IMG/VR virus record: IMGVR_UViG_3300006133_000009 | Source: a virus | Length of the DNA: 59,079 nucleotides | Reading direction: 5' to 3' (one strand) | In this document: positions 1,271 to 51,462 of the stretch, piece after piece | How the letters are laid out: each line of letters begins with the position of its first letter | Position numbering within the stretch: the stretch's first letter is position 1 | Position numbers and translations under genes: made by a program | Notes under the pieces: model-generated | Databases searched by the model: none | What the model saw: the letters and a program-made list of their open reading frames with translations, nothing else | What the model was told of the DNA's origin: nothing

Positions 1271-1378
1271 GACGGGACCTGACATTCGCATTCGTATTCG
1301 AGGGCGTGTTAGTCGCATTCGCATACGCAAAACCGGCATTCGCGCTGTTATTCGCATTACCGCTGAAAAGGACACCGC
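1271..1378 (-). repeat. DGR template repeat (TR), followed by a 148-nt spacer (1123..1270) before the RT start
   Basis: Aligns gap-free to 1843..1950 and over 105 nt to 42308..42412. Mismatches fall at TR adenines (T on the + strand). In the target reading frame the TR reads GVLFSGNANNSANAGFAYANATNTPSNTNANVRSRQ* with 9 AAY codons. Confidence 0.9.
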
Positions 1379-1819: not shown

Positions 1820-3262
1820 TTACGCTTTTGGGAAAAAGCAAAGACGGGACCCGACAGCCGCATACGTACTCGAGGGCGCGTTAGTAGCAGACGCACACGC
1901 AAAACCGGCATGCGCGCCGTGAATCGCACTACCGCCGAAAAGGACACCGCGCAGAGTTTCAGCACTTGGAATGTTAGTATAGTGGTAGTCGCAGAAATAC
2001 GTTGTCGAGCCTGCGCCGGAGCTTACAGACGGCATGATTTCGCCGTACTCTCCGAAGATTATCTCTTTGACATATCCATCGTTTCGAGCTTCGTTGCCAA
2101 CGTGCGAATAGCCGTTGTAGTTGCTGTCGGTGAATTTCTCCGGGTCATCACATACGAACACTTTGCTTAATCCGTCACCGGTCGGAGCGTTGGGACTGAT
2201 ACGGATATTGATGCCGTCAGTCCATTTCCAAATGTGTCCGAAAGGATTTTCTATGCCACGGTAACGAGGCACTGTAAAGGTGTCAATGTAGTCACCGTTT
2301 TCGGTGTATAGGTAGTAATCTACGATGCCAGACTTGTTGCCGTGGTGGTCTGTATACCCACATGGAATGAAAGGATAGTTTCCATTGAAAATGCTCCAAC
2401 TGTTCCAATCCCATGTAGTCACGCCATCGCCCAAACCGCCTTGACGATAGCCCTCCGAAGTTAATTGGGGGTTGTATGCAGCTTGGCTGTTGAGCGTGGC
2501 ATATTCGATAACGAATAACCAATAAAGCGTCTTTTGAGCTTCATAGGTCATGCAGTTCCATTCCGTGCTTCCGGCTTTACGATTGCGAGCGTAAGCACGG
2601 AAGTTTGTGCGACTGATGCCAGTAACCGGGCGACCGAGTGCCGAACGGCATGTGCCATCCCAAGCACTTTGATTTCCGCAGCCTCGGAAGTCGGCAGAAT
2701 CGTTCACGACTGATGAAAGTTTGTTGCCGGTACGCTGCAATGCCGCTTCGTATGCCGATATATACATTTTCGGAACGTGATGATAGCCGGGCAGAGGGTG
2801 TTCTGAGATTTTCACGCGCTGTTTGTTGCCGCTTGTTTCAAACTTGCGGTAGTGGTCGGGGATTTCGACCATTACTTGACCGCGTGAGCCGTCACGAGTA
2901 GAGCCGAGCCACGATTCCGGCGGCAGATACTCGACAACTTCGCCGTCATCGTTGAGCAAGCATCCTTTCATGCGGTTGTGAATCGGGAGCGAGCGGTGCA
3001 AGTCCGCGTTGCCGATTCGGGTGCAAGCCGGAGATGATACGGTTTTATCACGCTCAATGCCATAGGCGCATTGGCTCTCCAAATAAGGGAGCATAGACGC
3101 GAGCGCGGCTTTCTTGCTTTCGCCGTCTTTGTCGATAACGTGAGTTACGAGATTGAACGGATTGGTGCCGTCAACTTCCGGCAAGTCTTGAATGCGTTTG
3201 CCGCCCTCAAACGCTGCAAGCATCTGAATAACGACTGCTTCTTGTGCTGATGTTAATGCCAT
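1820..3262 (-). CDS. DGR target protein 1, tail-fibre/receptor-binding candidate with C-terminal VR (480 aa)
   Basis: C-terminus LFGGSAIHGAHAGFACASATNAPSSTYAAVGSRLCFFPKA carries VR1. This is the typical C-type-lectin/FGE-like DGR variable-domain ending (GxRLC). Lies in the tail-fibre gene block. Confidence 0.85.
   Translation of the reverse strand: MALTSAQEAVVIQMLAAFEGGKRIQDLPEVDGTNPFNLVTHVIDKDGESKKAALASMLPYLESQCAYGIERDKTVSSPACTRIGNADLHRSLPIHNRMKGCLLNDDGEVVEYLPPESWLGSTRDGSRGQVMVEIPDHYRKFETSGNKQRVKISEHPLPGYHHVPKMYISAYEAALQRTGNKLSSVVNDSADFRGCGNQSAWDGTCRSALGRPVTGISRTNFRAYARNRKAGSTEWNCMTYEAQKTLYWLFVIEYATLNSQAAYNPQLTSEGYRQGGLGDGVTTWDWNSWSIFNGNYPFIPCGYTDHHGNKSGIVDYYLYTENGDYIDTFTVPRYRGIENPFGHIWKWTDGINIRISPNAPTGDGLSKVFVCDDPEKFTDSNYNGYSHVGNEARNDGYVKEIIFGEYGEIMPSVSSGAGSTTYFCDYHYTNIPSAETLRGVLFGGSAIHGAHAGFACASATNAPSSTYAAVGSRLCFFPKA
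1843..1950 (-). repeat. DGR variable repeat VR1
   Basis: 108 nt aligned to the TR with 16 mismatches. 15 are at TR adenines and 1 is a synonymous GCG-to-GCT change. Lies in the last ~43 codons of the 480-aa ORF. Confidence 0.9.
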
Positions 3263-33279: not shown

Positions 33280-33577
33280 TACGTTGCTTTTTAAGTCTTA
33301 ATCCGAACAAACCTTTTGAGGGGTCAAATTCGGGGTATGAGTATTTATCTTGCGGATTGTAAGTGCTAATCCATAGATTTATTCTGCGTTCAAAATATTG
33401 TTTATCTTTTTGAGCTTCTATGGAGTTTAAGATATTGCAAAACTCTATCGCTGCACTCTGATAGTCGCCAAAATTTCTTAACGGCTTCACATCGTAGCCG
33501 TCTTTCCAACACACGACATATCCATCTGGAGTGCTTGACTTAATCGCATTCATTTTAAGCTGTCTTACGTTCTGCAA
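33272..33577 (-). CDS. Hypothetical protein (101 aa)
   Basis: ORF in the early operon. Confidence 0.45.
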   Translation of the reverse strand: MQNVRQLKMNAIKSSTPDGYVVCWKDGYDVKPLRNFGDYQSAAIEFCNILNSIEAQKDKQYFERRINLWISTYNPQDKYSYPEFDPSKGLFGLRLKKQRNG

Positions 33578-35258
33578 ACCGTTTTACTGAATCGCATAGA
33601 GCGACACACCAAGCGCGGGCGATTGTCACCTCAACCGCGTTGCCGATAAACTTCTTTTGGTCTGCTTGTGTGCCGATAAGCACATAATCTTCCGGGAAGC
33701 CCATAATCAGTTTTAGTTCCGAGATTTTGAGCATACGCATTTTGATGTCAACGATACGGTAGAGTGCCATAAACTCTTTGATTTTTACCATTATCGGACT
33801 GTCGGTGTCATATACCGCTATCGCGAAGTCGCCGGATTCAGTCGATATGAGGTATGGCGGTCGCTTATCCATTTTCGCTATGAGTGTGAAGCACGGAGAA
33901 TCGACCGAGCCGCCGGGTGATGCAAACTGCGGATTCATCAAGTAATGATGCTTGCGATTGGCTGTTATAACTCTTGACGGTTCGTCAATAGAGCTGCCGA
34001 CATTGCTGTAATTGGTATCCATTACCCACGGGCATACGCTAACAAGTTTCTGCTTTGGATTGGTGAGGACTGCCGGATTAGGACTGTCGATGCTTGAAAT
34101 TTGACCGCCGCCGGAATACTCGTTTGCTATGAACTGCGTCTGAACGAGAGCGAGCCTATCGCGTGTCAGCAACGTGGGGCAAGGATTGTCGATGCTTTTG
34201 CCGGTGTCTTTGAAGTTGTAGCTACATAAGAAGTCAGCGTGTATAAGCGCGTGGTGGTCAACGGTCGTTATCGTACCGGCTGGAGCTTCGATTGATATGT
34301 TCTTATCGTCCGGCGAGCCGCTGAATTGCTTTGATAGGAACTGCACGGAAGCGAGAGCCAACCGCCCTTGTGTCGCGACTGTTGGGCAAGGGTCTTCGAG
34401 TGACGGTGCGACATATCGGCCGCGTTGATTCATTGAGTTGTATTTCACCATAAACGCTTGCTTGCCACCGGCGACAAACTTAATCAGTCCGGCGTATATG
34501 CGTTCAAGCGTCTTATCTGATAGCGGCTTTTTGCGGTCGAATATTGATTTGCCCTCATCTTCCAAGTCGAGGACTTCACGCACAGGTTTCCACTTGTGTA
34601 GAGTGTCGAACAATGCCGCTTCGCCGTTCTTGCTGTGTGTCGGTTCGGGGAACACTATCGGCAAACCTTTCTTCGCGAATATGCCGAAGAATCGTTTGCG
34701 TGAGGTGTATGCGCCATAGTCTGCCGCATTTAAGATGCGATGCTCGAAGTTGTAGCCGTATCGCTTGACATTGTTAACCCAACGGAGATATGAGCGTCCC
34801 TTATCGGTCGAGAACGGTTTGCCGTTTTCGTCAACCTCGCCCCACGACATAAATTCTTCGACATTCTCAATCTGAATATAATCCGGGTCGATAGCTTCAA
34901 TGTATCGGAATAGATGCTCGGCAAGTGTCCGGCTGTCTGCATCGCGAGGCTGACCGCCTTTTGCTTTCGAGAAGTTAGTGCATTCGAGCGATGCCCATAG
35001 CACGGTGAGCGCGTCCGGGTTCTTGATTCTGCACGATTCGAGATGCTCTACAAGTGGCGACAATTCGAGTGTGCGGATGTCTTCGGTGAAGTGTAGCGCG
35101 TCCGGGTGATTCGATGCGTGGGAAGCTATCGCGTTTGCATCGTGATTGACACAAGCGATGACCTCGGCGCATTGTTCTCCGTCAAGTCTTGCGGAGTTAA
35201 CGCCGGTCGATGTTCCACCGGCACCGCAAAAAAGGTCGATATATAGTAACTGCTTCAT
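33555..35258 (-). CDS. DNA (cytosine-5) methyltransferase with expanded target-recognition region (567 aa)
   Basis: Motif I DLFCGAGGTSTG, motif IV-like SLECTNFSKAKGG, motif VI IENVEEF, motif VIII YTSRKRFF and motif X FIGNAVEV. Confidence 0.85.
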   Translation of the reverse strand: MKQLLYIDLFCGAGGTSTGVNSARLDGEQCAEVIACVNHDANAIASHASNHPDALHFTEDIRTLELSPLVEHLESCRIKNPDALTVLWASLECTNFSKAKGGQPRDADSRTLAEHLFRYIEAIDPDYIQIENVEEFMSWGEVDENGKPFSTDKGRSYLRWVNNVKRYGYNFEHRILNAADYGAYTSRKRFFGIFAKKGLPIVFPEPTHSKNGEAALFDTLHKWKPVREVLDLEDEGKSIFDRKKPLSDKTLERIYAGLIKFVAGGKQAFMVKYNSMNQRGRYVAPSLEDPCPTVATQGRLALASVQFLSKQFSGSPDDKNISIEAPAGTITTVDHHALIHADFLCSYNFKDTGKSIDNPCPTLLTRDRLALVQTQFIANEYSGGGQISSIDSPNPAVLTNPKQKLVSVCPWVMDTNYSNVGSSIDEPSRVITANRKHHYLMNPQFASPGGSVDSPCFTLIAKMDKRPPYLISTESGDFAIAVYDTDSPIMVKIKEFMALYRIVDIKMRMLKISELKLIMGFPEDYVLIGTQADQKKFIGNAVEVTIARAWCVALCDSVKRFAERKTA

Positions 35259-35584
35259 TTCTTATGTGATAAGTTTATTTTGATGATATTATTCGGTTTA
35301 TGCTTTGCTTCAAGTGCCTTTTCTCTCTCGGCTGCATACTCGGCGAGCATTTCAACGTGCCGTTCAAGTTCTTGCATGAGGTATTTGTTATCTTCTTGCA
35401 GATTCTTGATTTCGTCATTACGCCGCTTCAGTTCATCGTTATATCGCTTTCTCTCAAACTGTGAGAATGAGAGGTCAAAATCGCGGCAAGTGCATTGCTC
35501 GATGTCGCCGCTGACTGCGGCCGCCATACATCCGGGTATCAGCACTCGCCCGGCGATTTTGTCAACGATATAGTGGCACTTCAT
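35255..35584 (-). CDS. Hypothetical coiled-coil protein (109 aa from M17)
   Basis: The M17 start avoids overlap with the upstream ORF. Confidence 0.45.
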   Translation of the reverse strand: MKCHYIVDKIAGRVLIPGCMAAAVSGDIEQCTCRDFDLSFSQFERKRYNDELKRRNDEIKNLQEDNKYLMQELERHVEMLAEYAAEREKALEAKHKPNNIIKINLSHKK

Positions 35585-35597
35585 TGATTCGTAGCAT

Positions 35598-35933
35598 TTA
35601 GAAGTATAGCGGAGGTATCGGCATCCATGCAATTACGATGTCGGTTATATCTTCACGACAAGGTGACAAGTGTACTTTTACACTTTGCACTCGGTCATAG
35701 TGGTATCGTTCCTTGCACCGAAGCGTTGTTTTGAATCGCCCGGTTTTGGTGTACCAACATACTATCGGTTCATCTCCGGTATGGACTAATACGCGCGAGC
35801 CTATTGGGGGCAATTCTTTTTTAGGGTCATGCCATTTATATGTCTGACCGGCTGTGATTTCGTTTAGAATATTTGCGCCCCCTTTCACCTCAATAGCACA
35901 TTTATCCCAATTGATGACAGGTTTTGTTCCCAT
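35598..35933 (-). CDS. DUF551-like protein (111 aa)
   Basis: KELPPIGSRVLV...WMPIPP is a pattern typical of DUF551. Confidence 0.45.
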   Translation of the reverse strand: MGTKPVINWDKCAIEVKGGANILNEITAGQTYKWHDPKKELPPIGSRVLVHTGDEPIVCWYTKTGRFKTTLRCKERYHYDRVQSVKVHLSPCREDITDIVIAWMPIPPLYF

Positions 35934-35935
35934 AT

Positions 35936-38143
35936 TCAGAAGTCAAAGAGTGTTGGAGTATTGATTTCTTGCTCGGCGCGTTTGATGTTCTTCACGGCTG
36001 TTTCAAAGTAGCTGTCTTTGAGTTCGCAACCGATACCGCGACGATTGTTTTGTACTGCGACATAGACTTCAGAGCCGATGCCGAGGAACGGAGTAAACAC
36101 GACTTCGCCCTCATTGCTCCAAAGGTGAACAAGTCGCTTGATGACTTCAAGCTGCAAGGGGCAAATGTGCTTTTCATCGCCTTGCGCCGTTCCCTCTGCG
36201 CCGTTCAGCACATCAGTACGCTTTATATCCATCCACACCGGCGATGCCCAGCGTTGCCACGTTTCGAGAGGGAAGTTATCGCGATTGAGATTCTGAATCG
36301 GCTCCCAATCGGCTTCATCGCTCTCCCATTTCTTGAATATCGTTATGTATTCAGCCATTCCGATGCCGGTTTTGGAGCTATCCGAGGTGACTTGCTTGTA
36401 GAGTAGGCGTTGCGTCTTCGTGCGCTGCATCTCCAAAACCGGGTCACACCAAATCGTGATTTTAGAATGCAGCTTGAATCCCTCGGCGAGAACGGCGCGT
36501 GTGTGTTCGCCGGTGAAGTCATACATACCCGTGTAGCCGGAAGAGTTCTTATACACGCCGAGGTCTTTTGTGTGGCAGCACATAATTCTACCGGGTTTAA
36601 GGATTCGATAGAGTTCTTTCAGCAAGAATGCGTATTGCTTGAAAAACTCCTCGTGATTCTCGTTGTTACCCATGTCGTGGATATAGTTCGAGTAGGTGAA
36701 TAGCGAGCTGAACGGCGGCGAGAAGATTATGAGGTCAACGCTATTGTCGGGGATTCGCGATATTTCGATTGTCGTATCTCCTTTCATCAGAAATACATAA
36801 TTGTCGCGATACTCGTCATAGGTGTAGTCGTTGAGAAGTCCGTACTTGTGTTCGTTCACGTTTCGGTTGATTTCGCGCTGCATTTCTTCAAACCGCGCTT
36901 GCTTTTGTTCGATGATTGCTCTTGCATTCTGCATCGTGTCGGTTATTATGAGGTGAATGTTTACTGCGTCTTTTCGCCCGAATCGGTACGACCGGCGCAC
37001 TTGTTGATAGAAGTCCTCGAAAGAGAAATCAGGAGCGGTAAATATCTGCGTTCCGCAGCTTTGGAAGTTCATGCCGTAGCCGCATATCTTGGCTTTCGAG
37101 ATTAGTATTCGGATTTTGCCGTCTGCGAAGTCGAGCAAGCGGCGTTCTTTCACATCGTCTTTGTCGCTTCCTCGTACCTCTACGGATTCTGGCAATAGCT
37201 CACGGAGTATGTCGCCCTCCTCGTTCTGCTTAATCCAAATCAGCACTTGCCCCTCGGTTTCATTCGCTAACTTCGCGGCAAGTTCAAGGCGTTCTTTCTT
37301 CGTCTTGCGAAGCTCTGCATTGAAGTTTGTAGCGTTCACGATGCCGCCGGAGAATAGTTGCCCTGCCTGGGGTTCGGTTTCGACCGGGTGAGTAATGTAG
37401 TTGAGCGGTGGCAGCTTGAATCGTTTGCCGGTTTCGATGAATCCGATATCTGCCGGATTCTCGAAGATGATAGCCCAAGATGCTATCCAACCGTAGAAGT
37501 CAGCTTTTGCATGACCTTTTAGGCGGTAGTTGTTCATGCCGTCTTCACGCACAAACCATTTAGAGCGCATATCCTGCGCGTCAAGCACGTTGAGAAATTC
37601 GGAATGATTGCCGATTTCGTTCAAGTCGTTAGGCGAGGGTGTAGCGGTGCAACATAGCTTATAAAGCGTGTGTTTGAACTTCGCTGTTATAGCGTTACGA
37701 TAATGCCCGGTAAAGTTCTTCAGTATAGAGCTTTCATCAAGCACCACGCCGACAAAGCGAGCTTCATCAATGTTGTCTAACTGTTCGTAGTTGGTGATTA
37801 CGAGTTTAGCGTCTGCCGGTATGTTGTCAGAATAGCGGTGAATACTGTAACCGAATGTTGCGCCGACTGCGATTGTCTGACGGCTCACCGACAGCGGTGC
37901 AAGTATCAGTACCGGGCGAGATTCGCGCTCGGCGACTTTCTGCGCCCATTCGAGCTGCATCAGCGTTTTTCCATTGCCGCAACCGGCAAATATCGCCGCT
38001 CTGCCGCGCTTCAAAGTCCAGCGTACACAGTACTTCTGAAAGTCGAAAAGTTGCGGATTGAGTTGCGATTCTTCGATGTCGAAGCCGCTATCAGCTACGC
38101 GCTGTATCTTTGTCGCGAGGAAGTCTTGATAAGCTGTTTTCAT
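35936..38143 (-). CDS. SNF2/DEAD-like helicase fused to an N6A/N4C DNA methyltransferase (735 aa)
   Basis: Helicase motif I GCGNGKT, motif II VVLDESS and motif VI QQVRRSYRFGR. The MTase follows with motif IV IIFSPPF before motif I FTPFLGIGSE (beta-class order). Confidence 0.8.
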   Translation of the reverse strand: MKTAYQDFLATKIQRVADSGFDIEESQLNPQLFDFQKYCVRWTLKRGRAAIFAGCGNGKTLMQLEWAQKVAERESRPVLILAPLSVSRQTIAVGATFGYSIHRYSDNIPADAKLVITNYEQLDNIDEARFVGVVLDESSILKNFTGHYRNAITAKFKHTLYKLCCTATPSPNDLNEIGNHSEFLNVLDAQDMRSKWFVREDGMNNYRLKGHAKADFYGWIASWAIIFENPADIGFIETGKRFKLPPLNYITHPVETEPQAGQLFSGGIVNATNFNAELRKTKKERLELAAKLANETEGQVLIWIKQNEEGDILRELLPESVEVRGSDKDDVKERRLLDFADGKIRILISKAKICGYGMNFQSCGTQIFTAPDFSFEDFYQQVRRSYRFGRKDAVNIHLIITDTMQNARAIIEQKQARFEEMQREINRNVNEHKYGLLNDYTYDEYRDNYVFLMKGDTTIEISRIPDNSVDLIIFSPPFSSLFTYSNYIHDMGNNENHEEFFKQYAFLLKELYRILKPGRIMCCHTKDLGVYKNSSGYTGMYDFTGEHTRAVLAEGFKLHSKITIWCDPVLEMQRTKTQRLLYKQVTSDSSKTGIGMAEYITIFKKWESDEADWEPIQNLNRDNFPLETWQRWASPVWMDIKRTDVLNGAEGTAQGDEKHICPLQLEVIKRLVHLWSNEGEVVFTPFLGIGSEVYVAVQNNRRGIGCELKDSYFETAVKNIKRAEQEINTPTLFDF

Positions 38144-40550: not shown

Positions 40551-41387
40551 TCATCTTCGGCTTTCGCCGGTCAGATAGAGTACGTTGTATGTCTTGAATC
40601 GGTCTGCCAATCGACCGAATCCATCGTCAAATTCTTTCGTCAGCCTTTCCACATCGAGATTAGTTGTCAGATGCGCGAATTTCCGGCGGTCGGGAGCTGT
40701 CATTGTCCAAATCTCATTCCGGGCGTGTAGAAAGTCATTGACTATCGTTTTAGTGTCGATTCCGTAGAATGGTCGGTTTTCAACGCCGATGTCGTTCAAG
40801 CATAGATTAACCGGCTTACAAGCGAATCCGACTGAATTTTCCTCGTTGTATAGGTAGCGGTCGATATTGTTGTGAATCGTGTAATAGTTCACCATTTGCG
40901 TTACCGATACGTTGTGAAAGAAATTCGGGTTGTTCGTGTATTTCAGATATTCGGAGAAAATCTGCATCATCAGAGTTTTGCCGGTGCCGACTTCGCCCAT
41001 TAGCAAAATATGCTTTTCCAACTTGTGACCCTCGCCCGGAAAGACTTGCTCGGCAAGAGGGCAGTTGTTGAAGTAGTAGAGCAAAAATCGGAGTACTTTG
41101 CTGTTGTGTTCGTCAATCACGAATTTGCGCCGCTGACCGGCGAGGCAGATTGTGTTAGCTATCTGAACTACAAGGTTACTGTGAGCGTTGAAAGTCGCGG
41201 TGTCCGACAAGTTCTCAAACTGTGTGACCTGCTTTCGAGCATCGCATATCACTCGCTTTATAACCGGCTCAATCTTCAATCTTGCAGATTCAGCCGCTTC
41301 ACGCTGTCGCTTGGCTTCGACTTGCGCGATGATTTCGGGTGTCAATTCGTCTTTCATTTCTGCGCTGCGTTTAATATTTAGCTCCAC
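40551..41387 (-). CDS. DnaC/IstB-like AAA+ helicase-loader ATPase (278 aa)
   Basis: Walker A LMGEVGTGKT. Position directly after the replication initiator gene. Confidence 0.6.
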   Translation of the reverse strand: MELNIKRSAEMKDELTPEIIAQVEAKRQREAAESARLKIEPVIKRVICDARKQVTQFENLSDTATFNAHSNLVVQIANTICLAGQRRKFVIDEHNSKVLRFLLYYFNNCPLAEQVFPGEGHKLEKHILLMGEVGTGKTLMMQIFSEYLKYTNNPNFFHNVSVTQMVNYYTIHNNIDRYLYNEENSVGFACKPVNLCLNDIGVENRPFYGIDTKTIVNDFLHARNEIWTMTAPDRRKFAHLTTNLDVERLTKEFDDGFGRLADRFKTYNVLYLTGESRR

Positions 41388-42219
41388 CGAAGCCGCCGGA
41401 ATAATTCATCTTCGTTGTCGGCTGCGCCGGAACTTCAGGCATTTGTTGTTCGGTCTTGATTTCCGGGTATTCGGTAGTCCACCGAGATTGATTGAGCCAA
41501 GTTGCGAGATGCGCGAATTGTGGCACAAACTCTCCAGCTGCTTTCGCGGCAGCGTAGTGTGCGGTCATTCTTTCGAGTGCCGGCATAAGCAAGGGGACTA
41601 TTTCGCGCCACGTTTTCGGATTCTTTTTTTTGAAGTTCTGAAACTCTACATCGTGACCTCGCTTGCTTCCGGGATATGCTTTGCGGAACAATTCAAATTC
41701 AGATTCCAAATCGGAAATTTCCGAATTTTGACATATCTCGTTAGAGATAATATTATTTCTTATATTCTTTATTTCTTTACTTGTGTCCGCTAAGTTATCC
41801 GCTGTGTTGTCCTCTTGGTTGTCCGGGGTTTCGTTGGCAATACCATTGCAACCGCTTAATATTTCGCCATTTAAGCTATCCTTTAGGTTGTCCGCTGTCT
41901 GATACATATTATATTTGCAAATTGTAATGATTGTTGTATTGCCAATAGTTTCTTTCGTTATCATCTTTTCCTCTTGCAGCATCTTCAGGAAGGCAATGAC
42001 TGTGTTATGCCCCTTGTGCCACCGTTGGCAGAGAAAAGCGATTGAAGCTACAAGTTGACCGCGTTTGATTTCGATTAGCCGAGAGCCGCCGGATAACACT
42101 TGACCGTCATCCCAAGACGCCATGAGGAGCAAGTCGAGCCACCATTTAAGGCGTTCGGCATCTTGCCAAATCCAATGCTTCGGCAACTCCCGGCTAATCT
42201 TAATCCAACCGTTCATCAT
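41371..42219 (-). CDS. Replication initiator/replisome organiser-like protein (282 aa)
   Basis: The N-terminal winged-helix-like NGWIKISRELPKHWIWQDAERLKWWLDLLLMA is typical of phage DnaD-like initiators. Confidence 0.55.
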   Translation of the reverse strand: MMNGWIKISRELPKHWIWQDAERLKWWLDLLLMASWDDGQVLSGGSRLIEIKRGQLVASIAFLCQRWHKGHNTVIAFLKMLQEEKMITKETIGNTTIITICKYNMYQTADNLKDSLNGEILSGCNGIANETPDNQEDNTADNLADTSKEIKNIRNNIISNEICQNSEISDLESEFELFRKAYPGSKRGHDVEFQNFKKKNPKTWREIVPLLMPALERMTAHYAAAKAAGEFVPQFAHLATWLNQSRWTTEYPEIKTEQQMPEVPAQPTTKMNYSGGFGGAKY

Positions 42220-42227: not shown

Positions 42228-42842
42228 TCATCCGAAATAGAAGTCTTGCCAAATCTTGATAAACTGTGTACCGAAATACTCGGCGAGAGCTTCAGATTTT
42301 ACGCAAAGACGGGACCCGACAGACGCAGCCGCATCCGAGGGCGCGGGAGTCGCAGTCGCATACGCAAAACCGGCATGCGCGCCGTTACCCGCAGCACCGC
42401 CGAAAAGGACACATTTGGCTCTCTGCTTCTCGTTCATCTTGTCTATCTCTTTTTGAGTATAGAGCCAGTACCACGGCCACCACTTTTCTTCGCCTTTAAC
42501 ATACTTCGGCTCCCAACCCTCATTGAGAGCGGCGGCGATGATGCGGAGCTTCAGATATGCTACGATGTCTTTTGCCGTTTCATCCATTGGCGGATTCTGC
42601 TCCTCGACTATGCGGCGATACTGATTGACAAAGGCGTGATTGCCGAGGACTGCACAAGCATCCTCAAATGTCTTCACACGCTCGGTTATCGGTCGGGGGT
42701 CAACTTGTATCGGCTCGGCGGCGTCACCGTATAGGTCGCGGAGTAACTGCTGAATTTCGGGGTTTTCACCGGCGTTGCGGAAAGCCGCCTGGACTTGTTC
42801 GATAGTCGGCTGCTTAAATCCGACTGCTTCATTTTCTTTCAT
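42228..42842 (-). CDS. DGR target protein 2, small early-region protein with a C-terminal VR (204 aa)
   Basis: C-terminal LFGGAAGNGAHAGFAYATATPAPSDAAASVGSRLC is encoded by VR2. No signal peptide was seen. Confidence 0.8.
   Translation of the reverse strand: MKENEAVGFKQPTIEQVQAAFRNAGENPEIQQLLRDLYGDAAEPIQVDPRPITERVKTFEDACAVLGNHAFVNQYRRIVEEQNPPMDETAKDIVAYLKLRIIAAALNEGWEPKYVKGEEKWWPWYWLYTQKEIDKMNEKQRAKCVLFGGAAGNGAHAGFAYATATPAPSDAAASVGSRLCVKSEALAEYFGTQFIKIWQDFYFG
42308..42412 (-). repeat. DGR variable repeat VR2 (remote)
   Basis: 105 nt aligned gap-free to TR 1271..1375 with 18 mismatches, all at TR adenines. Shares the IMH-like end GGGTCCCGTCTTTGC with VR1. Confidence 0.85.
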
Positions 42843-43002
42843 TGTTGATTTTGTTTAATTTGGGTAAAACTTCGTGTTTGAGTAATCTCACTGCATTTGT
42901 CAGTCGTAAACTTTTACGAATCGCGGCTGCATCGAGATTGTCAAGAATCTGCGGCAAGCATCGGCATAGAGTGGCGACAACATCATTAGGCACATTTCTC
43001 AT
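42829..43002 (-). CDS. Small hypothetical protein (57 aa, below the ORF-track cutoff)
   Basis: Hand-translated as MRNVPNDVVATLCRCLPQILDNLDAAAIRKSLRLTNAVRLLKHEVLPKLNKINNERK. TGATG overlap with the MBL gene stop, and a 14-nt overlap with the target-2 start. Confidence 0.35.
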   Translation of the reverse strand: MRNVPNDVVATLCRCLPQILDNLDAAAIRKSLRLTNAVRLLKHEVLPKLNKINNERK

Positions 43003-43739
43003 CAGTACGGAAGTTTAGATACGTTGATTTCAATGCCCGGATTTGCCACATAAACCGGTTTTCCTACGGCTTTCGCTATTCGGTCGCGGAATTGTACTGC
43101 ATCGCTGTGTCTGCCCGATAGGTGAAGCAATACCACTTCATTTACGGCTGTGAGGTCGGTCGTGCGTAGTATCTGCTCGGTTGTCTTCAGCTCCATGTGC
43201 GATTCAAGTAACCTTTCGCGTGTGCTGCTGACTGTGCTTCCGTTGCTGATAGCGTCTTCGAGTAGTTCGTCAGAGTAATTCGCTTCAATCATTATGTGGT
43301 TGAGCTTTTCAACCCGATATTCAAGCATCATCGTGTCGGTGACGAACAAGAGTTTGCCCATTTCGCTATGCTCGATAACGAATCCGAGGCACGGCACGTC
43401 ATGGACTACCGGGAGCGCATAGACTTTGAAGCCGCCCACTATGTAGCCGTGCATCGGTTCGATACTCTTGCAGAACGTGCGGTTGAGCTTGGGGAATGAT
43501 GCAAACACATCTTCGAGAGCCAATGCACGGATTCCGAATTTCAGATACTCCGGCAGATACTTTGAATGGTCTTTGTGTCGGTGGCTCACAACGCACCCGG
43601 ATATGCCGCTCAACTTCCAACCGAGAGCTTTTTTAACCTCGACCAACGGCATACCGCATTCAATCAGTAATGCGCCGTTTGAAGATTGTAGAATGTAGCC
43701 GTTGCCACGTGACGAGCTTCCGATACAAAGTAGTTTCAT
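43002..43739 (-). CDS. Metallo-beta-lactamase-fold hydrolase, likely recombination nuclease (245 aa)
   Basis: HxHxDH motif VSHRHKDHSKY. Adjacent to recT. Confidence 0.7.
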   Translation of the reverse strand: MKLLCIGSSSRGNGYILQSSNGALLIECGMPLVEVKKALGWKLSGISGCVVSHRHKDHSKYLPEYLKFGIRALALEDVFASFPKLNRTFCKSIEPMHGYIVGGFKVYALPVVHDVPCLGFVIEHSEMGKLLFVTDTMMLEYRVEKLNHIMIEANYSDELLEDAISNGSTVSSTRERLLESHMELKTTEQILRTTDLTAVNEVVLLHLSGRHSDAVQFRDRIAKAVGKPVYVANPGIEINVSKLPY

Positions 43740-43757
43740 TCGTGTATCTGCATTAGG

Positions 43758-44735
43758 TTAGTAATTCGGTTCTTGGGGTACTTCTTCGACCGCCGGAGCT
43801 GCTTCATCGGCTTTCGGCTGTTGAGTGACTTCGCCGGTTTCTTCGTTTACGACTTCTTCATACGATACCTCGGCGGCATCGAGATTGAGCGTTTGAGCGT
43901 CCGCGAGCTGAAGTGCATCGTTTCGGGCGGCAAGGGCGCGATTCTCGGCTTCGGTGTCGTGACCGAGAGCCGACATCATCTTGATTGAGAGATAGCCGTA
44001 TTTTGAGAGAAGTCGGCGAATGACTGTCTTCAACGACATGTCGTTGAAATTGCCCTCCCAACCGACTGTATTAGACGCTATGCCGCTGTTGGCTTTCTTT
44101 ATAAGGTCGGCGACTGTGACTTCTTTTTTGAACTTGATACCGGGAGCGTAACGCTTGGCATAAGCCGCCATATCTTCAACCGACATATAGAGCGTCTTTG
44201 AGTAGCCGTTAAGCAACTCGAAATAGCAAAAGTAGCCGATGATTTTGTCGGATGTCTTTTGTCCGCCAAGGTTAACTTCGCCGGATAGACGATTAGCGGT
44301 CTGTAACTCGCCTTCATATACCACATCGGCGTTGATTGTGCGATACTGACCTGTACGCATGGCAAGCTGAATGTAACCCTTGTAACCGGGTATGAATGTC
44401 GGTGTCGGCACTTTCACCTCTACAGTTCGACTGGTTTGTGGGTCGGTCTGCTTGACTTTGTTCTTATACACCACGATATACGCGAATCCGAGAGCGCGGT
44501 TTATAGGCAGGTCGAGTACGGCAGCTTTCAAGCACTCTTGTACGATTGTCGAGGGGTTGCACTCTTGCAGCGACTTGTCACCGTTGTAGAGGTCGATGAT
44601 TGACGCGATGAATAGATTTTTGTTCTCTGCGAGTGCGTTTTGGAACTGTTCTACCACACTCGGCGCATTGAGAATTGATTTCAGCTTTGCGAGTCCGGTT
44701 TGCCCGGTAGTCGCGACTTGGTTGTTTTCTGCCAT
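43758..44735 (-). CDS. recT: RecT-family single-strand annealing protein (325 aa)
   Basis: GFAYIVVYKN...GYKGYIQLAMRTGQY is RecT-like. Confidence 0.8.
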   Translation of the reverse strand: MAENNQVATTGQTGLAKLKSILNAPSVVEQFQNALAENKNLFIASIIDLYNGDKSLQECNPSTIVQECLKAAVLDLPINRALGFAYIVVYKNKVKQTDPQTSRTVEVKVPTPTFIPGYKGYIQLAMRTGQYRTINADVVYEGELQTANRLSGEVNLGGQKTSDKIIGYFCYFELLNGYSKTLYMSVEDMAAYAKRYAPGIKFKKEVTVADLIKKANSGIASNTVGWEGNFNDMSLKTVIRRLLSKYGYLSIKMMSALGHDTEAENRALAARNDALQLADAQTLNLDAAEVSYEEVVNEETGEVTQQPKADEAAPAVEEVPQEPNY

Positions 44736-44747
44736 GATTTGCGTTGA

Positions 44748-46775
44748 TTAATGATTATTGAATAGTCTTTTTTGAGACGGTGATTTCTCGATTACAAGCT
44801 GCTCATCGCGTGAAACGATAAGGCTAATGACTTGTGACTGCATCGGTATTATGTCGTTGACTGATTCGGCGTTATCAACGAATATCGGTGCATATACGCC
44901 TTGCGATTTGCATATAGCATTGATGATGTCTAAACCGATGATGATTCTCTCGGCATTGCTGCAAGTACCGTAAGGCTTGCCGTTGAGTGTGGCTTCGCAT
45001 GTTTCTTTCTCCGCGCCGTTGATTGCAGTTGCTATCCAACGGAACTTTACGAGTGCGAAAAGACCGTTTATTCGCGATTCTATTGCCGCACTCCGAGCCT
45101 TTGAAAATTCGAGCATCGTAAATTCAAGGCGTTCAAGCTCCGCGATTTCATCGCTCTGCGTTGATAGCTGTTTTTCGAGTTCGTCAATACGTGCTTGTGT
45201 CTTTTGGTTGTAATCACGCTTTTTCAGTCGCGATTTAAGGCTGTCTATTTCAGCCGAGAGTGTGTCGCGTTTTGCTTTCAGTTCGGTATTGTTCGCCGGT
45301 GTAGCCGGTTGTTCGGTCTTCGCTTCAAGTTCTGCTATCTCGCTGTCGATTTTTGCAAGCTCCGAATCGGCGGCGATAAGCGGAGTTGCGTCCGGCATAG
45401 TGAGTTCTGCGCGGTAAATGTCACTCGCTTTCAGTTGCTCGATAGTTTCGTTATCTGCCTTGATAGATGCTTCGGATGCTTCCAATGCGGCGGTGGCACG
45501 CTGTATCTGCGTCTTGATTGCTGACCCTCTATGCTCATTGTCTGCTATGCTTCGAGCGATTGACGCGAGCGTGGCTTCACGCTGTTTCTCGAAACTCTCG
45601 ATGATTTCAGCCTCTTTCGTTTCGATGTCTTCAAGGTCAAATTGACGGTGGCACATAGGGCAGCAAAAGTCGCTTTCGTTGATTTGCACTTGTTCAGCTT
45701 TGACGGCTTGGCTGTTGGTTTGGAGTGACTTCCATTCTTTGACAAGTCTTGCCCGGTCGTTTTTGTATCGCTCTATCTCATCTTTTCGGGCGACTACCGC
45801 GCTCTCGGTCGAGCGTATGCGCTGCATGAGGCTGTCTATCTGAAATTGCACATTGTCACGCTCACGCTTTTTGTTACGATAGTCGGCTGTGGCTTCGTCT
45901 TCGATGTCTGCCACTCGCTTCGAGCGTTTGCGGCGTAGCTCGGAGATTTGCGATTGGATTTTCATCCGCTCATTGTCGGCGGCGCGTTGAGCTTCGGCGG
46001 CATTCGCCATTTGCCCTTCGATTGCATCGCGTTCGGCTGTCTTGGTCTTGATGTCAGATTCGAGAGCCGCCCAGTCTTCCGGCTCTACAAGGTCGCGTTT
46101 CTTTTCGTCTATGCGACCGGGAATGTCGGAGATTTCGGCATTGAGGCGTGATTTCTTCGCGGCTATCTCTTTCTTAAACTCGTTCATCGTCTTGCCGGTG
46201 ATTTGAGCGAGGAGTGCTTCAAAATCGGCATTTCCGGTGGCTATCTCGTTGTCGGAGATTGACCCTGCCATTTTGAGCAACATTTCTTTTTGCGATTCTG
46301 CGGACTGCGAGGGGAAGTAAGCTGGATTCGTGATAAACTTGAATACTGCTTCGTTGCAGATGTCGGCGATTTTAGCTTCATACTCACGCTGGCTGCATGG
46401 CACATCGTTGTAAAAGCGTTCTTCTTCGTTGCCGGTGAAAACTCGCTCGGTCTGACCGGCGCGTTTGACCCACTTCTCGGTGAATCGGCGGCAGATTTTG
46501 ACTTCTTCGCCGTTTACGGTGATGATAGCTGACACTTCGTGCGGAAGCTGCGGTATGATTCTTCCGTCTGCATCGAGCGTCTTCAGGTCGAATTTCTTGC
46601 GGTCTTGGCTGTCTTTGCCAAAGAGTAGCCAAGTGAATGCGTCAAAAAGAGTAGTCTTGCCGCTTCCGTTACGCCCGAAGATGTCGGTCACTCTCTCGTC
46701 AAAGCTGACCGAGAGTTCTCTAATGCCCTTGAAGTTCACAAGCGAAAGAGATTTGATGATGATTTCTTTCTTCAT
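44748..46775 (-). CDS. SbcC/Rad50-like AAA ATPase with coiled coil and zinc hook (675 aa)
   Basis: N-terminal Walker A GRNGSGKTTLFDA, a long coiled coil, a central CCPMC hook-like motif, and a C-terminal Walker B-like segment (PIFVDNAE). Confidence 0.75.
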   Translation of the reverse strand: MKKEIIIKSLSLVNFKGIRELSVSFDERVTDIFGRNGSGKTTLFDAFTWLLFGKDSQDRKKFDLKTLDADGRIIPQLPHEVSAIITVNGEEVKICRRFTEKWVKRAGQTERVFTGNEEERFYNDVPCSQREYEAKIADICNEAVFKFITNPAYFPSQSAESQKEMLLKMAGSISDNEIATGNADFEALLAQITGKTMNEFKKEIAAKKSRLNAEISDIPGRIDEKKRDLVEPEDWAALESDIKTKTAERDAIEGQMANAAEAQRAADNERMKIQSQISELRRKRSKRVADIEDEATADYRNKKRERDNVQFQIDSLMQRIRSTESAVVARKDEIERYKNDRARLVKEWKSLQTNSQAVKAEQVQINESDFCCPMCHRQFDLEDIETKEAEIIESFEKQREATLASIARSIADNEHRGSAIKTQIQRATAALEASEASIKADNETIEQLKASDIYRAELTMPDATPLIAADSELAKIDSEIAELEAKTEQPATPANNTELKAKRDTLSAEIDSLKSRLKKRDYNQKTQARIDELEKQLSTQSDEIAELERLEFTMLEFSKARSAAIESRINGLFALVKFRWIATAINGAEKETCEATLNGKPYGTCSNAERIIIGLDIINAICKSQGVYAPIFVDNAESVNDIIPMQSQVISLIVSRDEQLVIEKSPSQKRLFNNH

Positions 46776-47957: not shown

Positions 47958-48098
47958 ATTGCGTTGATTTTCGGGGGTTGCTATTGCTTAATAGGTATTA
48001 AGTTTTTATATTTGCACAATTTTTATTTTGATTGTGGCAATTACTTTCGTGATTGCGATGCAAAGTTAATGAACAAATCTCATTGAGGCAAATTTCTG
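47958..48098. promoter_or_regulatory. Lysis-lysogeny switch region with divergent genes and candidate operators
   Basis: Contains a + strand TATATTTG (48007..48014) and a minus-strand TAACTTTG (48061..48068). Also a palindrome CTTAATA-GG-TATTAAG (47987..48002) and an inverted repeat ttgcacaat/attgtggcaa (48012..48040). Confidence 0.5.
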
Positions 48099-50222: not shown

Positions 50223-51401
50223 TTATCGCTCGTTTTCGTCATTTTGGGAACGCTCTCCGAAAATGTCCGGGATTCTCGCAACGGCAGCTTGCTTGTTTTT
50301 GTCAAGGACTTTCGCGTATATCTGCGTTGTCGATAGTTCACGATGTCCGAGTAGCTTGCTGACTGTGTAAATGTCGGTGCCGATGTCGAGCATGAGGACT
50401 GCGAATGTATGGCGGCCACAATGGAATGTGATGTGTTTGTCGATGCCGGCGCGTAGGCACCACTCTTTAATGGCGTGATTCGTGTCGCTCGGATATCGGA
50501 TGTCACCAAAGACATATTCGCCCGGCTTTCCTCGCTCTCCCAGGAGGTCGGCAGCTTGAGGCGTGATGTCGAGATATTCTTGACCGCCGGTTTTCTTTTG
50601 CCGGAAGATAATGCGTGTGAAGTCGCCTTGCTTCTGCATTTCGCCCCAAGTCAGCTTCACGATATCGCTACGGCGTAAGCCGGTAAGACACGAAAAGAGA
50701 AAGGCGCGTTTGATTTCCGGGAACTCGCATTGAGTGTCAACGAGCTTTCGGATTTCTTCGAGCGTCAGATACATTCGCGTACCCTCTTCGCCGCTGAATC
50801 CGTCAATGCCACGCATAGGATTGTGCGGAATGATTCTATCTTCGTATGCTTGATTAAGACACGCCCGGAGCTTGTTAAAATAACTCTGCTTAGAGTTCTG
50901 CGACAATGGGCGGCGGTCTGCTCTCACTCGCTTGTCATTGCCGAATGCCTCGGCTTTCTTGTCAAGGTAGGTTCTGAATCCCTCGACCCAACGCGGCGTG
51001 ATTTCGGCGAATGTGATGCGTTTGTTCCGCTCGTACTTTTCGAGATGCTTCAAGCACGATAGCCAGTTGCCCCAATTGCCTCGGCTCTCTTTGCCGAGCC
51101 GCTTTTCAGTCATAGCGCGGTAGTAGTCGAAGAATAGAGTATCTTCGGCAAACTGTGATTTGAATCCGTAGTCGCCGTTCTGCATCTCAACGAGCCGTTT
51201 GCCGAGAATCGACTGTGCGAGTTGCATAGTCTGCTTGTTTTTCTCCTTGTCGGCGCGTGTCTTCTCCGGGATTAGGTAGAGCTTCAGAAACTCGTAATCT
51301 CTCTTGCCGTCTTTGTGGTATATGTCGAGATACAGGCTTATGTTACCGTTGAGTAGTTTCCGTTTCCGAAGCCGGATAGGTGATTTGTTTGTATCAGTCA
51401 T
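50223..51401 (-). CDS. int: Tyrosine integrase (392 aa)
   Basis: Catalytic region LTGLRRSD...HCGRHTFAV...LLGHRELSTTQIYAKV (R..H.R..H/Y). N-terminal SAM-like arm-binding region, as in Bacteroides phage integrases. Confidence 0.85.
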   Translation of the reverse strand: MTDTNKSPIRLRKRKLLNGNISLYLDIYHKDGKRDYEFLKLYLIPEKTRADKEKNKQTMQLAQSILGKRLVEMQNGDYGFKSQFAEDTLFFDYYRAMTEKRLGKESRGNWGNWLSCLKHLEKYERNKRITFAEITPRWVEGFRTYLDKKAEAFGNDKRVRADRRPLSQNSKQSYFNKLRACLNQAYEDRIIPHNPMRGIDGFSGEEGTRMYLTLEEIRKLVDTQCEFPEIKRAFLFSCLTGLRRSDIVKLTWGEMQKQGDFTRIIFRQKKTGGQEYLDITPQAADLLGERGKPGEYVFGDIRYPSDTNHAIKEWCLRAGIDKHITFHCGRHTFAVLMLDIGTDIYTVSKLLGHRELSTTQIYAKVLDKNKQAAVARIPDIFGERSQNDENER

Positions 51402-51462
51402 ATTGCGTTGTTATTTTTGTTACTTTTGTTACTTCGGAATTTGGAGTAACAAAATAACAACA

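What the first reader, a model, noticed from the sequence alone, without database searches (positions are those of the whole stretch)
42228..42842. Second, remote DGR target inside the early replication/recombination operon
A third copy of the repeat (VR2, 42308..42412) lies about 40.9 kb from the TR in the window, or about 17.9 kb across the circular junction.

- **Mismatch pattern:** VR2 has 18 mismatches to the TR, all at TR adenines.
- **Independent diversification:** several VR2 substitutions differ from those in VR1 (for example AAT becomes GCT versus AGT, and AAC becomes CCC versus AAC).
- **Host gene:** a 204-aa protein with no signal peptide, sitting between the MBL/RecT recombination genes and the replication initiator. 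It is not in the virion module.

Phage DGRs are normally described as diversifying tail fibres or receptor-binding proteins. A diversified, apparently cytoplasmic early protein suggests variable binding to an intracellular host factor. A candidate role is adaptable anti-defence or host takeover. That role is inference.
Basis: partly seen in the sequence, partly recalled or inferred. Interest (0 to 1): 0.9.

Follow-up and report, generated by a model that had tools for sequence, protein, structure and literature searches.

The report
Remote non-structural phage DGR target
A gut Bacteroidota prophage uses its mutagenic retroelement to rewrite both its tail protein and a small, apparently cytoplasmic protein inside its recombination/replication operon; this kind of second target has been reported before, but what it does is still unknown.

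Summary
VR2 (42303..42412, minus strand) lies in a 204-aa ORF (42228..42842). It ends in the same IMH-like sequence as VR1.

A near-clonal prophage differs from the window at 1 of 8,891 flanking bases but at 13 of 110 VR2 bases. Nineteen near-identical proteins vary almost only at TR-adenine codons. So VR2 is actively diversified.

The protein belongs to PHROG 11581 (function unknown). That family is also a remote adenine-mutated target in LoVEphage, in cultured Bacteroides phage Versailles, and in 9 of 9 IMG/VR contigs that carry both genes.

The gene is operonic. In about 69 of 80 loci it sits in or beside a recombination module (RecT–MBL, or phrog_3657–YqaJ exonuclease). It has no signal peptide or TM segment. 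No fold match was found, so a C-type lectin fold is unconfirmed.

Non-structural second DGR targets were already reported for Quimbyvirus/LoVEphage (2021) and for four prophage species (2025), with the same counter-defence speculation. This is therefore a new member of a known kind. The function is inferred, not shown.

The parts
42228..42842 (-). 204-aa target gene ('T2'), a PHROG 11581 family member. Soluble, with no signal peptide. The conserved core is roughly aa 45-139, the VR loop is aa 145-180, and a conserved C-terminal helix (YFGxQF...W.DF) follows.
   Evidence: ORF. phrog_11581 at E=6.8e-62 over the full length. Hydropathy. Conservation. AF2 model with mean pLDDT 76.6.
42303..42412 (-). 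VR2, the 110-nt variable repeat encoding aa 145-180 (VLFGGAAGNGAHAGFAYATATPAPSDAAASVGSRLC).
   Evidence: 21 of 21 mismatches to the TR are at adenines. It is hypervariable between near-clonal genomes and among 19 near-identical proteins.
42303..42317 (-). IMH-like 3' end of VR2 (GGGTCCCGTCTTTGC): a G+C-rich element plus TTTGC. It is identical in VR1, while the TR has ...AGGTCCCGTCAATGA (IMH*-like).
   Evidence: Alignments. The same VR-versus-TR end difference is seen in LoVEphage.
1266..1375 (-). Template repeat (TR): 28 adenines, 16 adenine-containing codons (nine AAY), and no stop codon reachable by adenine mutagenesis.
1838..1947 (-). VR1, at the C-terminus of the 480-aa tail protein.
   Evidence: 19 mismatches to the TR, 18 of them at adenines. 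VR1 varies among 8 genomes that carry an identical RT.
1820..3262 (-). Primary DGR target: a 480-aa tail protein (phrog_5302).
   Evidence: E=6.6e-135. Similarity to T2 covers only about 38 aa by BLASTP and 58-65 aa by hhalign, around the VR.
1401..1763 (-). 120-aa gene in the Avd (accessory) position between target and TR.
   Evidence: Position and phrog_19665. No Pfam or NCBIfam hit, so its identity as Avd rests on position only.
97..1122 (-). DGR reverse transcriptase, 341 aa.
   Evidence: RVT_1 at E=8e-21. The sequence contains IGNYLSQ and YADD. The identical protein is indexed in 1,949 blocks of the public collection.
42829..43002 (-). 57-aa ORF that overlaps the T2 start by 14 nt. It is conserved upstream of T2 in RecT/MBL-type loci.
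   Evidence: tblastn finds it in 15 of 80 loci. A similar small ORF overlaps the T2 start in Versailles.
43002..46775 (-). Recombination genes immediately upstream in the same operon: MBL-fold hydrolase (43002..43739), RecT (43758..44735) and an SbcC/SMC-like ATPase (44748..46775).
40551..42219 (-). Replication genes immediately downstream: a DnaD-like loader/initiator (41371..42219, starting 9 nt after the T2 stop) and a DnaC-like loader (40551..41387).
48061..48092 (-). Bacteroides-type promoter motif (TTTG-N-TAnnTTTG) in the divergent regulatory region. It is the nearest such motif upstream of T2 on its strand.
   Evidence: 7 matches against 1.97 expected. Gene map. A regulator and an integrase lie nearby.

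Best explanation
**Shown**
- The 204-aa gene is a bona fide second target of the phage's single DGR, about 18 kb from the cassette.
- cDNA made from the TR by the RT, with adenines misread, replaces VR2 as well as VR1. Both VRs carry the same IMH-like 3' end, so distance does not matter.
- About 16 codons are randomised, giving up to about 5e14 protein variants. Stop codons cannot arise, and two structural glycines are kept by selection.
- The protein belongs to a large Bacteroidota-phage family (PHROG 11581). That family was a remote DGR target in every genome tested.
- The gene is transcriptionally embedded in early recombination/replication operons.

**Inferred**
- The protein is a soluble intracellular (non-virion) binding protein made early after induction or infection.
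- Its DGR-programmable loop recognises a strain-variable intracellular ligand.
- The most likely ligand is a host or rival-element protein that interferes with phage recombination or replication intermediates. Candidates are a nuclease, or a defence sensor that monitors SSAP/exonuclease activity.
- On this reading it acts as an adaptable counter-defence or host-compatibility factor.

**Confidence by layer**
- 'Active remote DGR target, family-wide': about 0.97.
- 'Non-virion, early, cytoplasmic': about 0.7.
- 'Counter-defence binder': about 0.35.
For: **DGR target status**
- Mismatches are adenine-only.
- VR1 and VR2 share the same IMH-like end.
- The RT carries IGxxxSQ and YADD.

**Activity**
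- Prophage contig L086 differs from the window at 1 of 8,891 nt outside VR2 but at 13 of 110 nt inside it. Against the majority TR, its VR2 mismatches are all at adenines, 19 of 19.
- L090 differs at 43 of 6,883 outside and 12 of 110 inside. Its VR2 mismatches to the majority TR are 27 of 27 at adenines.
- Among 19 near-identical proteins, 15 of 17 TR-adenine codons vary against 18 of 187 other codons (Fisher p=6e-12).

**Selection on the protein**
- G154 and G176 are Gly in 19 of 19 sequences, although the TR encodes Ser and Arg at those codons.
- The sequence outside the VR is almost fully conserved.

**Family-wide behaviour**
- LoVEphage: 17 of 17 mismatches at adenines.
- Versailles: 14 of 14.
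- 9 of 9 IMG/VR contigs carrying both the RT and the homologue, in two different gene contexts.
- 90%-identity clusters hold up to 37,449 distinct member sequences.

**Context**
- The upstream neighbour is co-oriented in 73 of 73 loci, usually with a gap under 30 nt.
- 46 of 80 loci read phrog_3657 - T2 - YqaJ/lambda-exonuclease.
- 17 carry the full RecT-MBL-T2-DnaD order; 2 more are cut before RecT.
- 4 further loci have only RecT, RecT with YqaJ, phrog_3657 or YqaJ beside T2 (families).
- Versailles has the same order.
- The operon starts at a divergent regulatory region with a Bacteroides-type promoter motif.

**Localisation**
- No signal peptide or TM segment.

**Literature**
- Published authors reached the same tentative reading for the LoVEphage/Quimbyvirus homologue (PMC8008677, PMC12629997).
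Against: - There is no positive evidence of function. Pfam, NCBIfam and PADLOC gave no hits. PDB sequence searches gave none. Foldseek found no PDB fold match and only uncharacterised phage proteins in BFVD.
- Expression timing and absence from virions are inferred from gene order only.
- In LoVEphage the gene is about 8 kb from RecE/RecT, among methyltransferases and RtcB, so the recombination link is not universal.
- VR2 shares its loop scaffold (about 60 aa) with the tail protein. This could mean a similar, surface-type ligand.
- Because one TR serves both VRs, part of the VR2 diversity could be a by-product of selection on VR1.
- No hairpin of at least 6 bp was found downstream of VR2.
Confidence: 0.55

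Rival explanations
1. The protein is a virion-associated or lysis-released receptor-binding accessory. It would be an ordinary adhesion-type DGR target that merely happens to be encoded outside the structural module.
For: - Its VR loop and about 25 residues upstream are homologous to the C-terminus of the tail protein.
- Remote second targets in Bacuni phages and Toutatisvirus are interpreted as adhesins or receptor-binding proteins (PMC8143477; bioRxiv 10.1101/2024.10.15.618418).
- The Versailles homologue is annotated 'tail protein'.
Against: - The 'tail' similarity is confined to the VR.
- In 73 of 73 loci the gene is operonic with non-structural genes. In about 69 of 80 it lies in or beside a recombination module, across three module types.
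- It has no signal peptide and no domain resembling a tail attachment domain.
- The structural genes of this phage lie elsewhere.
Confidence: 0.15
2. The protein is a host-compatibility adaptor for the phage recombination/replication machinery. It would bind host SSB, a helicase or another replisome part, and DGR variation would let the phage work in many Bacteroidales hosts. This is not counter-defence.
For: - Tight embedding between the SSAP and the exonuclease, or between the recombination genes and the DnaD/DnaC loaders.
- DGR-bearing gut phages have broader host ranges (PMC8144416, PMC12636319).
- The family occurs across many Bacteroidota genera.
Against: - Core replication and recombination partners are conserved, so they should not need about 1e14 variants.
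- LoVEphage places the gene among methyltransferases and RtcB rather than replisome genes.
- There is no detectable similarity to known mediator proteins.
Confidence: 0.15
3. The protein is a prophage-encoded hypervariable sensor that protects the lysogen against superinfecting phages or other mobile elements. It would be analogous to the DGR-diversified 'antigen sensors' of bacteria.
For: - The phage is temperate. It has an integrase at 50223..51401, and a near-identical copy is integrated next to mnmE/trmE.
- Intracellular DGR targets in bacterial conflict systems are known (PMC10907252).
- An identical VR2 allele recurs in at least 24 contigs of the collection.
Against: - The gene has no promoter motif of its own, and its start overlaps the upstream ORF inside the lytic early operon.
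- At 204 aa it has no effector, NTPase or protease domain.
- It has no PADLOC hit.
Confidence: 0.1
4. VR2 is a functionally neutral passenger. A VR cassette was copied into a dispensable gene and is rewritten only because it still carries the IMH, with no adaptive role for the diversity.
For: - A single TR drives both VRs, so VR2 is unavoidably mutated whenever the DGR is active.
- Some family members have a non-DGR-like loop.
Against: - Target status and the IMH are maintained in three clades only 36-45% identical, each matching its own TR.
- Two glycines are strictly selected within the VR.
- The scaffold is under strong purifying selection.
- TR codon design excludes stop codons in this reading frame too.
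Confidence: 0.05

Closest known systems
Second, non-structural DGR target of Quimbyvirus / LoVEphage (Benler et al. 2021, PMC8008677; also the four prophage species with a distal second VR in PMC12629997)
   Same: - Same protein family: 42-43% identity over 94% of the length, PHROG 11581.
- Also a remote, adenine-mutated target of a tail-linked DGR (17 of 17 mismatches at adenines).
- Also non-structural and lacking recognisable domains.
- The same 'phage-host conflict' speculation was offered.
   Different: - A different phage: 59 kb, no nucleotide match in the phage collection.
- Here the gene is on the same strand as the DGR and sits directly between RecT/MBL and DnaD/DnaC. In LoVEphage it is in an island of methyltransferases, RtcB and a MutY-like protein.
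- The published work did not define the family, its breadth, or its link to recombination modules.
Mtd of Bordetella phage BPP-1 (the prototype DGR variable protein)
   Same: - TR/VR adenine mutagenesis.
- An IMH at the VR 3' end.
- AAY-rich TR codons.
- The VR lies in the C-terminal part of the protein.
   Different: - Mtd is a tail-fibre tip protein encoded next to the cassette, with a solved C-type lectin fold.
- Here the target is about 18 kb away, non-structural by context, has 24 residues after the VR, and no lectin fold could be shown.
- No downstream hairpin was detected.
Remote second targets in Bacuni phages and Toutatisvirus (PMC8143477; bioRxiv 10.1101/2024.10.15.618418)
   Same: One TR serves two VRs, one of them many kilobases from the RT (17.5 kb in Toutatis).
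   Different: Those targets carry DUF1566, Fib_succ or DUF6273 lectin-like domains and are read as adhesins or receptor-binding proteins. The present family has none of these domains and sits in recombination/replication operons.
Intracellular DGR targets of bacterial conflict systems ('antigen sensors', PMC10907252)
   Same: A DGR-diversified binding module acting inside the cell in a conflict context (inferred here).
   Different: Those are large multidomain bacterial proteins with NTPase or protease effector parts. This one is a 204-aa phage protein with no effector domain.
Lambda Gam / P22 Abc (anti-nuclease genes in phage recombination modules)
   Same: Position only: a small accessory gene embedded in an SSAP-exonuclease module.
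   Different: There is no sequence or fold similarity. The analogy comes from general knowledge and is a lead, not a test.

Membership tests
DGR variable-repeat target | The VR is near-identical to a TR, with differences essentially confined to TR adenines. | tested here: met
   21 of 21 mismatches at adenines over 110 nt, P=6e-17.
DGR variable-repeat target | A cognate DGR-type reverse transcriptase in the same genome, with the TR next to it. | tested here: met
   RVT_1 at E=8e-21. The IGNYLSQ and YADD motifs are present. The TR lies 144 nt upstream of the RT start.
DGR variable-repeat target | An accessory variability determinant (Avd). | tested here: inconclusive
   A 120-aa ORF sits in the canonical position and matches phrog_19665. 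It has no Pfam or NCBIfam match.
DGR variable-repeat target | An IMH at the 3' end of the VR that differs from the TR end (IMH*). | tested here: met
   VR1 and VR2 both end in GGGTCCCGTCTTTGC, whereas the TR has AGGTCCCGTCAATGA. This is sequence-level only; function was not tested.
DGR variable-repeat target | Population-level hypervariation restricted to TR-adenine positions. | tested here: met
DGR variable-repeat target | A stem-loop or cruciform just downstream of the VR, as in BPP-1. | tested here: not met
   No inverted repeat of at least 6 nt lies within 30 nt downstream of VR2. VR1 has a 6-bp one. This element is not universal among DGRs (own knowledge).
C-type lectin-fold DGR variable proteins (Mtd/TvpA type) | The VR is displayed on a C-type lectin / FGE-like fold. 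| tested here: inconclusive
   In the AF2 model (pLDDT 76.6) the VR segment itself falls below pLDDT 50. Foldseek gave no PDB match (best E=3.5). No Pfam lectin-type family matched even at E<=1 in 94 members. The terminal G-S-R-L-C motif is typical of such VRs, but that is own knowledge only.
PHROG 11581 | A full-length match to the family profile. | tested here: met
   E=6.8e-62, residues 11-203 against profile positions 5-192 of 200.
Phage tail protein (PHROG 5302) | Homology beyond the shared VR cassette. | tested here: not met
   Only residues 139-184 match. BLASTP covers 38 aa and hhalign 58-65 aa around the VR.
Known anti-phage defence system component (PADLOC) | A match to any defence-system model. 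| tested here: not met
   No hit at E<=0.01.

The most novel reading that the evidence does not exclude
PHROG 11581 proteins would be a phage-encoded, DGR-programmable intracellular binder that is functionally coupled to the recombination module. They would work like a rewritable Gam-type anti-nuclease, or like a decoy for defence sensors that watch SSAP/exonuclease activity. Temperate Bacteroidota phages could then adapt their post-entry compatibility to new hosts as quickly as DGRs adapt adsorption. This would be the first functional class of non-structural phage DGR targets.
Probability: 0.3. Interest if true: 0.85.

Novelty: new member of a known kind. Interest (0 to 1): 0.55.

Why it matters
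DGRs are the strongest genomic correlate of broad host range and prevalence in gut phages, and they are explained almost entirely through tail-fibre variation. A second, intracellular target would mean these phages also hypermutate a post-entry function.

The largest DGR survey could not see remote targets by design (PMC8144416), so this class is under-counted. This work shows three things:
- The published LoVEphage/Quimbyvirus case is one member of a large, coherent family.
- The family is DGR-targeted in every genome tested.
- The family is usually wired into recombination modules, and it is present in a cultured phage (Versailles) and in isolated temperate phages (BI-TP1, PV4-TP1).

Together these make the open question 'what do non-structural phage DGR targets do?' experimentally tractable.

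Tried and rejected
**Searches on the 204-aa protein that found nothing useful**
- Pfam, NCBIfam and PADLOC: nothing.
- Pfam at E<=1 on 94 family members: only noise.
- PDB sequence-profile search with the family alignment: noise only.
- First AF2 model with 47 sequences: too poor to use (pLDDT 58.8). The second, with 94 sequences, was usable (76.6), but Foldseek found no PDB match and only uncharacterised phage proteins in BFVD.
- Megablast of the 9-kb region against the phage collection: no match.

**Other tests**
- Hairpin search downstream of VR2: none found.
- Sigma-70 promoter and terminator scans were not above shuffled expectation. The only minus-strand 'terminator' near the gene is a small hairpin inside the VR itself.
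- Attempt to show that phrog_3657 is an SSAP. The PDB profile search failed. hhalign against RecT aligned only a shared C-terminal 'VDPETGE' tail (probability 86%). Its SSAP role therefore rests on position next to a YqaJ exonuclease.
- Attempt to reach a lectin fold through the tail protein's C-terminal family: no PDB hit.

**Literature**
- No virion proteomics was found for related phages.

**Rejected idea**
- I considered and rejected the 'tail protein' annotation of the Versailles homologue. It is an artefact of the shared VR.
Full report
**1.

The window is a circularly permuted genome of 59,002 bp; bases 1-77 repeat at 59003-59079. A three-copy repeat family is found at about 1262-1378, 1834-1950 and 42299-42415. 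All copies read on the minus strand.

In register, the copies are TR = 1266..1375, VR1 = 1838..1947 and VR2 = 42303..42412. The canonical cassette is present:
- a 480-aa tail protein (phrog_5302) ending in VR1;
- a 120-aa ORF in the Avd position;
- the TR;
- a 341-aa RT (RVT_1, with IGNYLSQ and YADD).

VR2 differs from the TR at 21 of 110 positions, all TR adenines.

The last three differences (TR AATGA versus TTTGC) are identical in VR1 and VR2. They follow a G+C-rich GGGTCCCGTC, so they are best read as the IMH/IMH* distinction. Both VRs therefore carry the same homing signal.

**2. VR2 is actively diversified**

- A prophage copy in an ENA assembly (L086, integrated beside mnmE/trmE) differs from the window at 1 of 8,891 aligned bases outside VR2. 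Inside VR2 it differs at 13 of 110. A second contig (L090) differs at 43 of 6,883 outside and 12 of 110 inside.
- Eight contigs encode an RT identical to the window's. Seven of them share a 'majority' TR with 30 adenines. Against that TR, the VR2 alleles of L086 and L090 differ only at adenines, 19 of 19 and 27 of 27.
- Nineteen near-identical proteins from metagenomes are essentially invariant outside residues 148-176. Of 17 TR-adenine codons, 15 vary, against 18 of 187 other codons (Fisher p = 6e-12).
- Two adenine codons never vary at the protein level. Gly154 (TR AGC) and Gly176 (TR AGG) are Gly in 19 of 19 sequences, which shows purifying selection acting on the VR2 product itself.
- The TR design randomises 16 codons (nine AAY), giving about 4.7e14 possible proteins, and no stop codon can be reached.

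**3. What the gene is**

The 204-aa product has no TM segment and a hydrophilic N-terminus. It matches PHROG 11581 (unknown function) over its full length (E = 6.8e-62). It matches nothing in Pfam, NCBIfam or PADLOC.

The family is large:
- 6,224 proteins at E<=1e-3 in the 90%-identity clustered collection.
- 854 cluster representatives at 50% identity for the non-VR part alone.
- At least 516 IMG/VR loci.
- Prophage-like copies across Bacteroides, Phocaeicola, Prevotella, Muribaculaceae, Alistipes, and even Ignavibacteria and Flavobacterium bins.

Some 90%-identity clusters contain 4,771 to 37,449 distinct sequences, which is a signature of hypervariation.

An AlphaFold model built on a 94-sequence alignment reaches mean pLDDT 76.6. 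It shows a helical N-terminal half, a low-confidence VR loop and a conserved C-terminal helix. Foldseek finds no PDB match (best E = 3.5) and only uncharacterised phage proteins in BFVD.

Homology to the tail protein is limited to the VR plus about 25 residues upstream. A few family members have a loop that does not look DGR-templated. A crAss-like phage encodes a 135-aa hypothetical protein that matches only core residues 57-130.

**4. The family is a recurrent remote DGR target**
- In LoVEphage (MW660583), the homologue's VR matches the TR beside the RT about 15 kb away, on the opposite strand. All 17 mismatches are at adenines.
- In the cultured Bacteroides caecimuris phage Versailles (ON453897), the homologue is mis-annotated 'tail protein' because of the VR. 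It matches the TR about 43 kb away with 14 of 14 mismatches at adenines.
- Nine IMG/VR contigs appear in both my T2 and RT locus lists. In all nine the VR matches the TR next to the RT, and 131 of 137 mismatches in total are at TR adenines.

Counting the window, 12 of 12 genomes tested show the pattern.

**5. Genomic context**

In the window the gene overlaps a 57-aa ORF at its start, and its stop lies 9 nt before the DnaD-like gene. It sits in a long co-directional array:
small regulators - SbcC-like ATPase - RecT - MBL hydrolase - 57-aa ORF - T2 - DnaD-like - DnaC-like - ... - helicase/methyltransferase - C5 methyltransferase - ... - terminase.

The array begins at a divergent regulatory region next to a repressor-like gene and an integrase. 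A Bacteroides-type promoter motif lies there (48061..48092). That motif is enriched in the genome (7 found against 1.97 expected), and none lies between it and the gene.

Across 80 IMG/VR loci:
- The upstream neighbour is co-oriented in 73 of 73 cases, mostly with gaps under 30 nt.
- 46 loci read phrog_3657 - T2 - (small ORF) - YqaJ/lambda-type exonuclease.
- 17 carry the full RecT - MBL - T2 - DnaD order; 2 more are cut before RecT.
- 4 more have only RecT, RecT with YqaJ, phrog_3657 or YqaJ beside T2.
- 11 have other contexts, including 1 with an MBL gene 4.3 kb upstream (families).

phrog_3657 has no annotation. It sits where an SSAP would be expected, and it shares a C-terminal 'VDPETGE' tail with RecT. 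Its role is inferred.

The family is thus usually wired into phage recombination modules of at least three compositions. I did not find this regularity stated in the searchable literature. LoVEphage is an exception: there the gene lies among methyltransferases, RtcB and a DUF2400 protein, about 8 kb from RecE/RecT.

**6. Mechanism**

The diversification step is shown. Mutagenic retrohoming from one TR reaches two IMH-bearing VRs, independently of distance or strand.

The window adds one piece of evidence that both VRs are rewritten from the current TR. Its TR (identical in JGI contig L094) differs from the majority TR at two adenines (A to G at 1316, A to C at 1312). Both VR1 and VR2 of the window carry exactly G and C at those positions.

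The function is inferred. I read the product as a soluble, early-expressed, non-virion protein whose DGR-programmable loop binds a strain-variable intracellular ligand. Given the neighbourhood, the most plausible ligands are host or rival-element factors that attack or monitor recombination/replication intermediates.

The rivals, each with its own refuting test in the rival entries, are:
- a virion-associated adhesin;
- a host-replisome compatibility adaptor;
- a prophage-encoded sensor that protects the lysogen;
- a neutral passenger VR.

**7. Comparison with what is known**
- Benler et al. 2021 (PMC8008677) described a second Quimbyvirus DGR target that is 'distal to the structural module', surrounded by methyltransferases, a MutY-like nuclease and a tRNA ligase. 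They proposed a role in phage-host conflict. That neighbourhood matches the LoVEphage locus seen here, and the 2025 Nature paper cites that work for LoVEphage.
- The same Nature paper (PMC12629997) reports four prophage species with a second VR distal from the RT, near counter-defence genes.
- Remote second targets of adhesin type are known in Bacuni phages and Toutatisvirus.
- The largest DGR census states that it could not detect remote targets (PMC8144416).

The finding is therefore a new member of a known kind, not a new phenomenon.

New here are the family definition, its consistent DGR targeting, evidence of selection on the VR2 product, the recombination-module embedding, and the identification of cultured or isolated phages that carry it.

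**8. Verdict**

The novelty is modest because of the 2021 and 2025 precedents. Interest is 0.55, because the function of this widespread, hypermutated, non-structural phage protein is still an open and now tractable question.

Noticed in passing
window 1312 and 1316 (within TR 1266..1375): The window's TR (identical in JGI contig L094) differs from the TR of 7 genomes with an identical RT at two positions. Both are adenines in the majority TR (A to C, A to G). VR1 and VR2 of the window carry the same C and G. This suggests the TR itself changed at adenines, by rare self-homing or VR-to-TR conversion, and that both VRs were rewritten afterwards.
   Followed up: partly
window 43002..43739 (-): The MBL-fold protein between RecT and the target gene has a sub-threshold match to the anti-Pycsar nuclease family Apyc1 (PF23023, E=0.005). 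It also has weak RNase Z-like hits. It could be the recombination exonuclease or a cyclic-nucleotide-degrading counter-defence enzyme.
   Followed up: no
IMG/VR loci, e.g. L023:9078-10001 (+): phrog_3657 is a protein of about 300 aa with unknown function. It lies immediately upstream of the target-gene homologue in 46 of 80 loci, paired with a YqaJ exonuclease. It shares only a C-terminal 'VDPETGE(I/V)' tail with RecT of sister loci (hhalign probability 86%). It may be an unrecognised single-strand annealing protein family.
   Followed up: partly
window 20372..23203 (-): A 943-aa protein combines a head-morphogenesis/minor-head domain with a strong match to the 'Bxa ADP-ribosyl transferase' PHROG (phrog_16625, E=9e-140). 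It may be a virion-delivered toxin or effector.
   Followed up: no
window 33555..38143 (-): A SNF2-helicase/N6-N4 methyltransferase fusion (735 aa) and a 567-aa C5 methyltransferase lie 4-9 kb downstream of the target gene in the same gene array. This echoes the published proximity of distal VRs to methyltransferases.
   Followed up: no
window 44748..46775 (-): The SbcC/SMC-like ATPase upstream of RecT gives PADLOC hits to LmuB (Lamassu, E=3e-19), PtuA, PbeC and GajA. This probably reflects generic ABC/SMC ATPase similarity rather than a defence system.
   Followed up: no
window 42829..43002 (-): A conserved 57-aa ORF overlaps the start of the target gene by 14 nt. It is found upstream of the homologue in 15 of 80 loci, and a similar small ORF is present in Versailles. 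It has no family hit, and the overlap suggests possible translational coupling.
   Followed up: no
L091 (NC_055890.1, crAss-like phage cr56_1) 4980-5387: gp09 is a 135-aa hypothetical protein that matches only the core of the family (residues 57-130, 36% identity) and lacks the VR part. So the scaffold also exists in Crassvirales without a DGR loop.
   Followed up: no
window, whole: The Bacteroides-type promoter motif TTTG-N17-23-TAnnTTTG occurs 7 times against 1.97 expected. Sites include 48061..48092 (-) and 51388..51419 (+), next to the regulator and integrase genes.
   Followed up: partly
L086 1..2620: In an ENA assembly the same phage is integrated with its integrase directly beside a bacterial mnmE/trmE gene, which gives a candidate attachment locus. 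The identical RT is indexed in 1,949 blocks of the public collection, so the phage is very common.
   Followed up: no
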